Assembly (NCBI RefSeq): GCF_009914755.1
Contig: NC_060932.1
DNA length: 64,000 nucleotides
Reading direction: 5' to 3' (one strand)
Source: the human T2T-CHM13v2.0 reference genome, Homo sapiens
Below are positions 8,462-9,000 of the stretch, piece by piece. Under the pieces are notes generated by a model, which had not been told where the DNA came from, ran no database searches, and saw only the letters and a program-made list of their open reading frames with translations. Within the stretch, counting starts at the first letter, position 1. Each line of letters starts with the position of its first letter. A program made the position numbers and the translations under genes.

Positions 8462-9000
8462 TTTTTAAAGCTTGCACATATGGTATTTTATTATAGAAGA
8501 AAATCTGATTTACAAATCTTTATACATTTCAAGGAAAACATTTAAACATCATAAAAGATGTTTGAGCAGACATAAAAATAGACAGAAATATCTCAGTAGG
8601 CAAATTCAAATTTATAACCAGAAAATAATTGTGGAGACTTATTTTTGGACTCTGTAGTTATTGCTGTATCATAGACAAGTAAACATTTCTGTACACTAGT
8701 TTCTTTATTGTGTGCAGAAATGTTTCCATAAGATTCATAGAGTACTCCTTGGAAGACTGACAGCTTGTTATTTGTTGGCTGTTTGGACCTTAGCAGTTCT
8801 TTACTGGGCTTCTGTAATTGTTCGTTGGACAAACTCTTGAGGCTCAGGATCCACAGTACCCCACATTTCTGGATTTCTTTTTCAATCATGGAATCATGGT
8901 GTTTTCAAAGGAAATGAATAACAAAAGATGAGGTCATGATAACCATCAAAATAATTCATTTCTTCTTTGTCATAAGGAGTTGGAAGAATTTCTTCATGAC
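8462..9000 (-). pseudogene. Processed pseudogene of C15orf48 (NMES1/COXFA4L3), CDS remnant plus 3'UTR
   Basis: Minus strand from ATG at 8997 reads MKKFFQLLMTKKK*..., D*KRNPEMWGTVDP..., KPSKEL..., KVQTANK* (stop 8770-8768), versus recalled MSFFQLLMKRKEL...DRKKNPEPWETVDP...KPIEELQNVQRVTK*; intronless, with stops and frameshifts; 3'UTR-like sequence ends in AATAAA (8492-8487). Confidence 0.85.
8671..8740 (-). ncRNA. mir-147-family hairpin relic within the C15orf48 retrocopy 3'UTR (expression unknown)
   Basis: Minus strand TGGAAACATTTCTGCACA (8728-8711) equals the first 18 nt of recalled miR-147b-5p; 16-bp stem 8681-8696/8710-8725 with 13-nt loop. Confidence 0.6.

What the first reader, a model, noticed from the sequence alone, without database searches (positions are those of the whole stretch)
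8462..9000. Hidden retrocopy of the dual-output gene C15orf48/miR-147b inside WWP1 intron 2
Seen: no single ORF shows it, but stitching three minus-strand frames gives FFQLLM, D*KRNPEMWGTVDP, KPSKEL and KVQTANK*. A 3'UTR-like tract follows, ending AATAAAATACCATATGTGCAAG with a short A remnant. Known (recalled): C15orf48/NMES1 encodes an 83-aa NDUFA4-like complex IV subunit (MSFFQLLM...DRKKNPEPWETVDP...KPIEELQNVQRVTK) and hosts miR-147b in its 3'UTR. The R->* change fits CGA->TGA CpG decay. Inference: an old processed pseudogene inserted into an L1M relic (L1M-like sequence on both sides). I do not know whether it is annotated.
Basis: partly seen in the sequence, partly recalled or inferred. 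Interest (0 to 1): 0.8.

Follow-up and report, generated by a model that had tools for sequence, protein, structure and literature searches.

The report
Old C15orf48 processed pseudogene in WWP1 intron
This stretch is a dead, intron-free copy of the C15orf48 messenger RNA, including a broken remnant of its miR-147b hairpin, that was pasted into a WWP1 intron long ago; it is an ordinary genomic fossil, one of at least five in the human genome.

Summary
The observation and the interpretation both hold. Window 8471-9020 on the minus strand aligns colinearly to four GT/AG-bounded exons of the chr15 locus that encodes the 83-aa C15orf48 protein. All three introns between them (168, 985 and 815 bp) are missing. 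A weak CpG-aware match to exon 1 may extend the copy to about 9062.

Identity is 396 of 506 aligned bases (78.3%, K2P 0.26) with 20 indel events. The reading frame is dead: the start codon is lost, there are three premature stops (one is CGA>TGA), and there are three frameshifts. The copy ends at the parent's AATAAA and cleavage site.

The miR-147b hairpin is present at 8672-8739 but truncated. It scores 27 bits against Rfam mir-147, whose cut-off is 57; the parent scores 101.

It is not unique. At least four more old retrocopies lie on chr2, chr9 and chr20 (two). The chr9 copy carries the miR-147a sequence.

An L1 ORF2 relic is supported upstream only. No target-site duplication was detectable. 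The RefSeq table supplied with the finding lists no gene here. It is an ordinary processed pseudogene of low interest.

The parts
8462..9062 (-). Whole processed pseudogene (retrocopy) of C15orf48. The 5' limit is approximate.
   Evidence: Colinear intron-free alignment to the chr15 exons. T2T chr8 87,490,462-87,491,062.
9040..9062 (-). Possible remnant of the non-coding exon 1 (CpG-island exon downstream of a TATA box in the parent).
   Evidence: CpG-aware local alignment scored 22; 0 of 300 shuffles reached that score (mean 12.8, sd 2.2). Ordinary local alignment was not significant: 20 of 200 shuffles reached the observed score.
8959..9020 (-). Part derived from the ATG-bearing exon (L006 5443-5505): 5'UTR plus codons 1-12.
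   Evidence: 51 of 65 identical, E 5e-10; coordinates.
8892..8958 (-). Part derived from the second coding exon (L006 5674-5759, the transmembrane stretch), with an 18-bp deletion.
   Evidence: (24 of 32 identical, colinear).
8834..8891 (-). Part derived from the third coding exon (L006 6745-6805); contains the CGA>TGA stop at 8884-8882.
   Evidence: 37 of 46 identical, E 3e-07.
8471..8833 (-). Part derived from the last exon (L006 7621-8003): end of the CDS, stop codon (TAA at 8770-8768) and 3'UTR.
8768..8994 (-). Dead coding region. ATG>AAG at the start; stops at parental codons 13, 36 and 44; indels of -18, -1, -3, -5, +3 and -1.
   Evidence: Codon-wise alignment.
8672..8739 (-). Truncated relic of the miR-147b precursor hairpin.
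   Evidence: Rfam RF00693: 27 bits, E 0.0032 in a 1.2-kb search and E 2 genome-wide, against a cut-off of 57. Fold: -16.3 kcal/mol, z -3.6, upper stem only. Alignment to the parent and the other copies.
8487..8492 (-). Poly(A) signal AATAAA inherited from the parent mRNA.
8462..8466 (-). Run of five A after the cleavage site. It may be a remnant of the poly(A) tail or simply flank sequence.
   Evidence: it cannot be told apart from flank.
9141..9480 (-). Alu-like element with an A tail. It is not part of the retrocopy and sits about 80 bases upstream of it.
   Evidence: Rfam Metazoa_SRP 58 bits at 9168-9315; sequence read.
9481..10130 (-). Old L1 ORF2 C-terminal relic in the same orientation (upstream host sequence); probably continues at 9066-9140.
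   Evidence: Dispersed repeat: 40 matches scored out of 78 candidates. Colinear weak tblastn matches to an L1 ORF2.

Best explanation
This is a non-functional processed pseudogene. A mature C15orf48 mRNA was reverse-transcribed and inserted in an ancestral mammalian germline. That mRNA was spliced, cleaved and polyadenylated at today's site, and still carried the uncleaved miR-147 precursor hairpin in its 3'UTR. The insertion was presumably made by the L1 machinery. It landed at about the end of ORF2 of an older L1, in what is now a WWP1 intron, antisense to WWP1.

The copy brought no promoter and has decayed neutrally. The coding frame is broken many times over. The hairpin has lost its lower stem, part of its loop and two seed bases.

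Shown: colinearity with the parent mRNA, loss of the introns, a shared 3' end, the disabling lesions, the CpG decay and the truncated hairpin. Inferred: the L1 mechanism (no target-site duplication is visible), the age (of the order of 100 million years) and the lack of expression.
For: 1. Genome-wide, window 8450-9070 hits only itself, chr15 43.24 Mb (two pieces), chr2 and chr20 (5 matches). It is therefore not a high-copy repeat, and it hits neither chr7 nor chr12, where NDUFA4 and NDUFA4L2 lie (locations recalled).
2. The chr15 locus has exons at L006 5443-5505, 5674-5759, 6745-6805 and 7621-8003 with AG/GT borders and an 83-aa ORF. The window aligns across all three junctions without the 168-, 985- and 815-bp introns.
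3. 396 of 506 aligned bases are identical (78.3%). K2P is 0.26 overall, 0.34 in the CDS and 0.20 in the 3'UTR, with 20 gap events.
4. The alignment ends at the parent's AATAAA...GTGCAAG: 74 of 89 identical, E 6e-22.
5. Lesions: start ATG>AAG, stops at codons 13, 36 and 44, frameshifts of -1, -5 and -1, plus in-frame indels of -18, -3 and +3.
6. Of 9 parental CpGs, 5 read TG/CA, 3 are deleted and 1 reads CC. The copy holds 1 CpG in 561 bases.
7. The hairpin scores 27 bits, against 101.1 for the parent and a cut-off of 57. A 5-base gap in the 3' arm removes the end of the mature miRNA, there is a 5-base loop deletion, and the seed TGTGCGG has become TGTACAG. In about 110 nt of context only the upper stem forms, whereas the parent's helix also extends into a basal stem.
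8. The window copy is closer to the parent (K2P 0.32) than to any other retrocopy (0.41-0.56) on a common alignment. That fits an independent retroposition from the parent.
Against: - No significant target-site duplication: 541 of 1000 shuffles scored as well.
- Only a 5-A remnant of a tail survives.
- The exon 1 match is weak and appears only with CpG-aware scoring.
- Pfam found no NDUFA4-type domain in the four translated fragments; they are short and decayed.
- Expression and cross-species presence could not be examined with these tools, so 'non-functional' and the age are inferences.
- In the genome-wide Rfam scan the hairpin alone is not significant (E 2). Its identity rests on the surrounding colinear alignment.
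Confidence: 0.95

Rival explanations
1. The relic still does something. One option is that the residual hairpin is processed into a small RNA with a new seed, either on the minus strand or as its near-palindromic reverse complement inside the WWP1 pre-mRNA. Another is that the copy acts as a regulatory or antisense element for WWP1.
For: The residual stem folds better than shuffles: -16.3 kcal/mol, z -3.6, 0 of 200 shuffles as good. The plus-strand version, which lies in the sense WWP1 intron, also forms a 14+3-bp stem: z -2.6, with 5 of 200 shuffles as good.
Against: In context only a stem of 14-17 bp forms, and the lower stem seen in the parent is lost. The Rfam score is 27 bits against a cut-off of 57. 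Two seed bases have changed. Divergence looks neutral and CpGs are depleted. No promoter came with the copy.
Confidence: 0.02
2. The copy did not come directly from the chr15 gene. It would instead be a secondary copy of another C15orf48 retrocopy, or a copy of a lost paralogue.
For: In 21 of 478 comparable columns, all retrocopies that have a base agree with each other and differ from the human parent. Several indels in the distal 3'UTR are also shared among the retrocopies and absent from the parent.
Against: The window copy is nearer to the parent (K2P 0.32) than to any other copy (0.41-0.56). Some shared states match the multi-species Rfam mir-147 consensus rather than the human parent: G in uaugAaUC and aac in GGAaacCaG. 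They are therefore better read as ancestral states that the human parent later changed. Others are parallel CpG decay.
Confidence: 0.03
3. A chance resemblance, or part of the surrounding L1 or another transposon.
For: The flanks are repeat-rich: an Alu and an L1 relic lie upstream.
Against: E-values reach 6e-22 locally and 6.6e-9 genome-wide. The alignment is colinear over about 590 bases of a spliced mRNA. Only five loci in 3.1 Gb match.
Confidence: 0.005

Closest known systems
L1-mediated processed pseudogenes of protein-coding genes (RefSeq lists two pseudogenes near this window, NTAN1P2 and SLC2A3P4; I did not check that they are processed)
   Same: Intron-free, colinear with the parental mRNA, ends at the parental poly(A) site, lies on another chromosome, and carries multiple disabling lesions.
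   Different: It is very short and old, about 78% identical to a parent with an 83-aa ORF. No single frame shows it, and the RefSeq table supplied with the finding lists no gene here. No target-site duplication or long A tail survives.
The MIR147A locus on chr9 (G000:C9:132438805-132438884, minus)
   Same: It is also a C15orf48 retrocopy. Parent mRNA positions 118-428 align contiguously across two exon junctions (69% over 326 columns, E 1e-30). It carries the mir-147 hairpin.
   Different: The chr9 hairpin is still above the Rfam cut-off (66.4 bits) and folds fully (-27 kcal/mol). Its 3' arm is the 20-mer used as the miR-147a primer in PMC7969774 (passage read). The window's hairpin is truncated and scores 27 bits. 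PMC3441733 (passages read) reports that miR-147a was not detected in its authors' small-RNA data.
MicroRNA retrocopies from MIR302CHG, mir-373 and mir-498 (PMC7692494, passages read)
   Same: A miRNA hairpin is carried to new loci by L1-mediated retroposition of a polyadenylated host transcript.
   Different: Those hosts are non-coding transcripts, and the copies keep target-site duplications and A tails. Here the host is a protein-coding mRNA with the hairpin in its 3'UTR. That paper calls its cases the first miRNA-related retrocopies and does not mention mir-147 or C15orf48: the find returned 0 hits for C15orf48 and NMES1, and one hit for '147' that appeared in none of the 12 passages shown.
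The parent gene C15orf48 / NMES1 / MOCCI / MISTRAV, with miR-147b in its 3'UTR
   Same: The sequence is homologous over the 5'UTR, CDS, hairpin and 3' end.
   Different: The parent has introns, a TATA box and CpG island, an intact 83-aa ORF and a 101-bit hairpin. Its dual coding and miRNA function is described in PMC8035321 and PMC8654286 (search listings and abstracts only) and PMC7793259 (passages read).

Membership tests
Processed pseudogene (L1-mediated retrocopy) | Colinear with the spliced parental mRNA; introns absent | tested here: met
   Three exon junctions are contiguous in the window, and the 168-, 985- and 815-bp introns are absent. A fourth junction (exon 1/2, 114-bp intron) is only weakly supported.
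Processed pseudogene (L1-mediated retrocopy) | 3' end coincides with the parental poly(A) signal and site | tested here: met
   AATAAA at 8492-8487; the alignment ends at GTGCAAG, 8471.
Processed pseudogene (L1-mediated retrocopy) | Poly(A) tail | tested here: inconclusive
   Only five A at 8466-8462.
Processed pseudogene (L1-mediated retrocopy) | Flanking target-site duplication | tested here: not met
   The best local alignment of the flanks scored 17, and 541 of 1000 shuffles scored at least as well. This loss is expected at this level of divergence.
Processed pseudogene (L1-mediated retrocopy) | Disabled reading frame | tested here: met
   Start codon lost, 3 premature stops and 3 frameshifting indels.
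Rfam mir-147 (RF00693) | Score at or above the gathering cut-off of 57 bits | tested here: not met
   27 bits. Other loci: parent 101.1, chr9 66.4, chr2 50.5, chr20 30.8.
Rfam mir-147 (RF00693) | Full precursor stem and conserved seed | tested here: not met
   Only the upper stem of 14-17 bp remains. There is a 5-base gap in the 3' arm, and the seed is TGTACAG against TGTGCGG in the parent.
NDUFA4 / C15orf48 protein family (Pfam B12D-type domain; name recalled) | Pfam domain hit in the translated sequence | tested here: not met
   None of 4 translated fragments gave a relevant hit. The fragments are 26-103 aa and decayed. Homology rests on the nucleotide alignment.
L1 relic as host sequence | Flanks homologous to L1, colinear on both sides | tested here: inconclusive
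   Upstream, 9481-10130 is a dispersed repeat with colinear weak tblastn matches to an L1 ORF2 (E 0.003 twice). Downstream, 7900-8461 had no other genomic match, and no similarity to the L1 copies fetched was found.

The most novel reading that the evidence does not exclude
C15orf48 mRNA still carrying its uncleaved miR-147 hairpin was retrocopied at least five times in early mammals. The annotated MIR147A on chr9 is simply the hairpin relic of one of those retrocopies. The WWP1-intron copy is the sibling least diverged from the parent, and the RefSeq table supplied with the finding lists no gene there. Together the copies are fossils of the ancestral dual-output mRNA. They show that hairpin-bearing transcripts escaped Drosha and reached the cytoplasm in the germline. 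This origin of miR-147a was not found in the literature searched.
Probability: 0.4. Interest if true: 0.35.

Novelty: new member of a known kind. Interest (0 to 1): 0.2.

Why it matters
On its own it matters little: it is one more decayed processed pseudogene in an intron. It has three small uses.

1. It is a homologue of C15orf48 and miR-147b that the RefSeq table supplied with the finding does not list. It could attract cross-mapping reads or probes.
2. Together with its four siblings it preserves ancestral states of the C15orf48 3'UTR. In 21 of 478 columns all copies agree with each other against the human parent.
3. The family shows that MIR147A sits in a C15orf48 retrocopy. That bears on whether miR-147a is a real miRNA gene or a pseudogene hairpin. 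PMC3441733 reports that it was not detected in small-RNA data (passages read).

Tried and rejected
- **Pfam on the translated retrocopy.** Four translated fragments gave only an irrelevant sub-threshold hit, Carbpep_Y_N at E 0.042.
- **Naming the L1 by protein searches.**
  - Pfam on 8 flank fragments gave nothing relevant.
  - Pfam on 8 ORFs from related repeat loci gave nothing relevant.
  - A PDB phmmer search with window 9782-9961 gave 0 hits.
  - PF08333 is not in the library.
  - What worked instead was tblastn with an ORF taken from an RVT_1-positive L1 copy.
- **Downstream flank as L1.** The own-genome search of 7900-8461 found only itself. BLASTN against five L1-bearing loci, against the whole window, and against four further fetched continuations found nothing colinear. 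To my eye the flank resembles a recalled L1 3' end, but that is recall, not a test.
- **Target-site duplication.** Not significant.
- **Exon 1 by ordinary local alignment.** Not significant: 20 of 200 shuffles reached the observed score. It stood out only with CpG-aware scoring.
- **More retrocopies.** A further genome search seeded with the chr2 copy found no additional loci.
- **Literature.** No paper describing C15orf48 retrocopies or a retrocopy origin of miR-147a was found in the searches. GENCODE, UCSC RetroGenes, RCPedia and RetrogeneDB could not be consulted.
- **NDUFA4 or NDUFA4L2 as the parent.** Rejected: there was no genome match outside chr15 and the retrocopies.

Full report
**Observation.**
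  - MKKFFQLLMTKKK lies in 8956-9054.
  - KRNPEMWGTVDP... lies in 8801-8881.
  - ...QKPSKELL... lies in 8593-8904.
- The codon-wise alignment gives D-stop before KRNPE and K-V-Q-T-A-N-K-stop at the end.
- AATAAAATACCATATGTGCAAG lies at 8492-8471 and is followed by CTTT and five A.

**Parent.**
- A six-frame/DNA search of the window's own 3.1-Gb assembly with window 8450-9070 gave 5 matches: itself, two pieces at C15:43,241,131-43,241,506, one on C2 and one on C20.
- I fetched C15:43,233,500-43,243,400 as L006.
- BLASTN gave colinear, same-strand blocks:

| Block | Identical | E |
|---|---|---|
| 3' end | 74 of 89 | 6e-22 |
| CDS end plus hairpin | 110 of 158 | 8e-14 |
| ATG exon | 51 of 65 | 5e-10 |
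| Third coding exon | 37 of 46 | 3e-07 |
| Mid 3'UTR | 58 of 82 | 4e-05 |
| Second coding exon | 24 of 32 | 0.25 |

- Reading L006 shows four exons at 5443-5505, 5674-5759, 6745-6805 and 7621-8003. Each is preceded by AG and followed by GT, except the last, which ends at the poly(A) site.
- Joined, these exons give an 83-aa ORF that begins MSFFQLLM and ends QRVTK.
- Rfam places mir-147 at L006 7723-7800 with 101.1 bits against a cut-off of 57. This is therefore the miR-147b host gene.

**Anatomy of the copy.**
- A global alignment of the joined exons to the window maps them as follows:

| Parental exon | Window coordinates |
|---|---|
| ATG-bearing exon | 9020-8959 |
| Second coding exon | 8958-8892 |
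| Third coding exon | 8891-8834 |
| Last exon | 8833-8471 |

- All three junctions are contiguous. The 168-, 985- and 815-bp introns are absent.
- 396 of 506 aligned positions are identical (78.3%). There are 60 transitions, 50 transversions and 20 gap events covering 140 columns. K2P is 0.26 overall, 0.34 in the CDS and 0.20 in the 3'UTR.
- Upstream of the ATG exon, the parent has a TATA box at L006 5249 and a short CpG-rich exon 1 that ends at 5328.
  - Ordinary local alignment of the window's upstream 78 bases found nothing significant: 20 of 200 shuffles reached the observed score.
  - An alignment that scores CpG>TpG/CpA as a half-match aligned 23 bases of exon 1 to window 9062-9040. It scored 22, and 0 of 300 shuffles reached that.
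  - The copy is therefore probably near full length, but that part is weak.

**Decay.**
- The parental ATG is AAG in the copy. An ATC one codon upstream has become ATG.
- There are stops at parental codons 13 (CTC>TGA), 36 (TGG>TGA) and 44 (CGA>TGA).
- There are indels of -18, -1, -3, -5, +3 and -1 bases.
- Of 9 parental CpGs, 5 read TG or CA, 3 are deleted and 1 reads CC. The copy keeps 1 CpG in 561 bases.

**The miRNA hairpin.**
- Rfam mir-147 hits window 8672-8739 (minus) at 27 bits. The E-value is 0.0032 in a 1.2-kb search and 2 in a genome-wide scan.
- Aligned with the parent, the 5' arm is almost intact. The terminal loop has lost 5 bases, and the 3' arm has a 5-base gap that removes the end of the mature miRNA. 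The seed TGTGCGG reads TGTACAG.
- A larger deletion follows the hairpin.
- Folded alone, the relic gives -16.3 kcal/mol (z -3.6), against -28.3 (z -6.2) for the parent.
- In about 110 nt of context only a 14-17-bp upper stem remains, whereas the parent's helix also extends into a basal stem.
- It is a truncated relic, not a member of the family by score.

**Not unique.**
- Searches with the parent's last exon, local BLAST, Rfam on the loci and a genome-wide mir-147 scan show further old copies:

| Copy | Parent mRNA coverage | mir-147 hairpin score |
|---|---|---|
| C2:41.58 Mb | 41-157 and 295-593 | 50.5 bits |
| C9:132.44 Mb | 118-428 contiguous across two junctions, plus 551-592 | 66.4 bits |
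| C20:43.29 Mb | hairpin plus distal UTR | 30.8 bits |
| C20:57.39 Mb | 142-178 across a junction, plus distal UTR | hairpin region absent |

- A further search seeded with the chr2 copy found no more.
- The 3' arm of the chr9 hairpin is the 20-mer used as the miR-147a primer in PMC7969774 (passage read). MIR147A therefore lies inside a C15orf48 retrocopy.
- On a common MAFFT alignment, the window copy is the least diverged from the parent: K2P 0.32, against 0.41-0.54 for the others. It is further from every other copy (0.41-0.56). This fits independent retroposition events.
- In 21 of 478 comparable columns, all copies that have a base agree with each other against the human parent.
  - At two hairpin positions the copies match the multi-species Rfam consensus rather than the human parent.
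  - These are best read as ancestral states, with some parallel CpG decay.

**Context.**
- The copy lies between the WWP1 exons at 7225-7317 and 12316-12406 (table supplied with the finding) and is antisense to WWP1.
- About 80 bases upstream on the minus strand is an Alu-like element at roughly 9141-9480 (Rfam SRP hit; sequence).
- Beyond it, 9481-10130 is a dispersed repeat: 40 matches scored out of 78 candidates.
  - It gives colinear, weak tblastn matches to the ORF2 of an RVT_1-positive L1 copy.
  - C-terminal residues 87-173 match window 9990-9739 (E 0.003).
  - Residues 177-200 match 9728-9657 (E 0.003).
  - Residues 241-252 match 9569-9534 (E 5.7).
- By extrapolation, the L1 ORF2 would end near the 5' end of the retrocopy.
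- The downstream flank matched nothing else. 'L1M on both sides' is therefore only half shown.
- No target-site duplication is detectable.

**Mechanism and age.**
- The anatomy is that of target-primed reverse transcription of a mature mRNA. The L1 machinery is inferred, not shown.
- The parental hairpin matches the multi-species Rfam consensus closely, and the MISTR paper calls miR-147b ultraconserved (PMC7793259, passages read). The 10 mismatches in 60 aligned hairpin positions (K2P 0.19) are therefore mostly the copy's own changes.
- With recalled human-lineage neutral divergence of about 0.15-0.2 substitutions per site since the placental radiation, this suggests an age of the order of 100 million years. 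This is an inference with a wide error margin. It needs the cross-species check, which I could not run.

**Known or new.**
- No paper describing C15orf48 retrocopies or a retrocopy origin of miR-147a turned up.
- The MISTR paper has no occurrence of 'pseudogene' or 'miR-147a', and the one 'retro' passage shown concerned retroviral vectors (PMC7793259, passages read).
- PMC7692494 calls mir-302, mir-373 and mir-498 the first miRNA-related retrocopies (passages read).
- PMC3441733 notes that miR-147a was undetectable in its authors' small-RNA data and does not use the word pseudogene (passages read).
- Pseudogene and retrogene databases could not be consulted.
- The RefSeq table supplied with the finding lists no gene at this place.

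**Verdict.** This is a correct call on an ordinary object: an ancient, dead, near full-length processed pseudogene of C15orf48 with a truncated miR-147 hairpin, one of at least five. Interest is low. The family-level point about MIR147A is the only part worth a follow-up.

Noticed in passing
L008 1298-1825 and 2575-2662 (G000:C9:132438565-132439929, minus); hairpin at L008 1538-1617: The chr9 locus that carries the miR-147a sequence is itself an old C15orf48 retrocopy. Parent mRNA positions 118-428 align contiguously across two exon junctions. Its hairpin scores 66.4 bits, above the Rfam cut-off. An insertion of about 750 bases separates an upstream CDS piece from the rest. No paper stating this origin was found.
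   Followed up: partly
L002 1505-2053 (chr2 41.58 Mb); L011 1479-1760 (chr20 43.29 Mb); L003 1287-1591 (chr20 57.39 Mb): Three further decayed C15orf48 retrocopies. The chr2 copy is nearly full length, with a 50.5-bit mir-147 hairpin just under the cut-off. That hairpin no longer folds better than shuffles (z -0.55).
   Followed up: partly
Alignment (parent against the five copies), distal 3'UTR: The retrocopies share several short segments and 21 base states that the modern human C15orf48 3'UTR lacks. This suggests deletions and substitutions in the parent lineage after the retropositions. The copies would then preserve the ancestral UTR.
   Followed up: partly
window 9141-9480 and about 10131-10440, minus strand: Two Alu-like elements break up the old L1 ORF2 relic upstream of the retrocopy. 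Rfam reports the nearer one as sub-threshold Metazoa_SRP, mir-1268 and mir-3135 hits. These are Alu-derived look-alikes.
   Followed up: no
L006 5249-5442 (chr15 parent): The parent has a TATA box at L006 5249, then a very CpG-rich short first exon and a 114-bp first intron. That CpG richness explains why the exon 1 part of the retrocopy is almost unrecognisable.
   Followed up: partly
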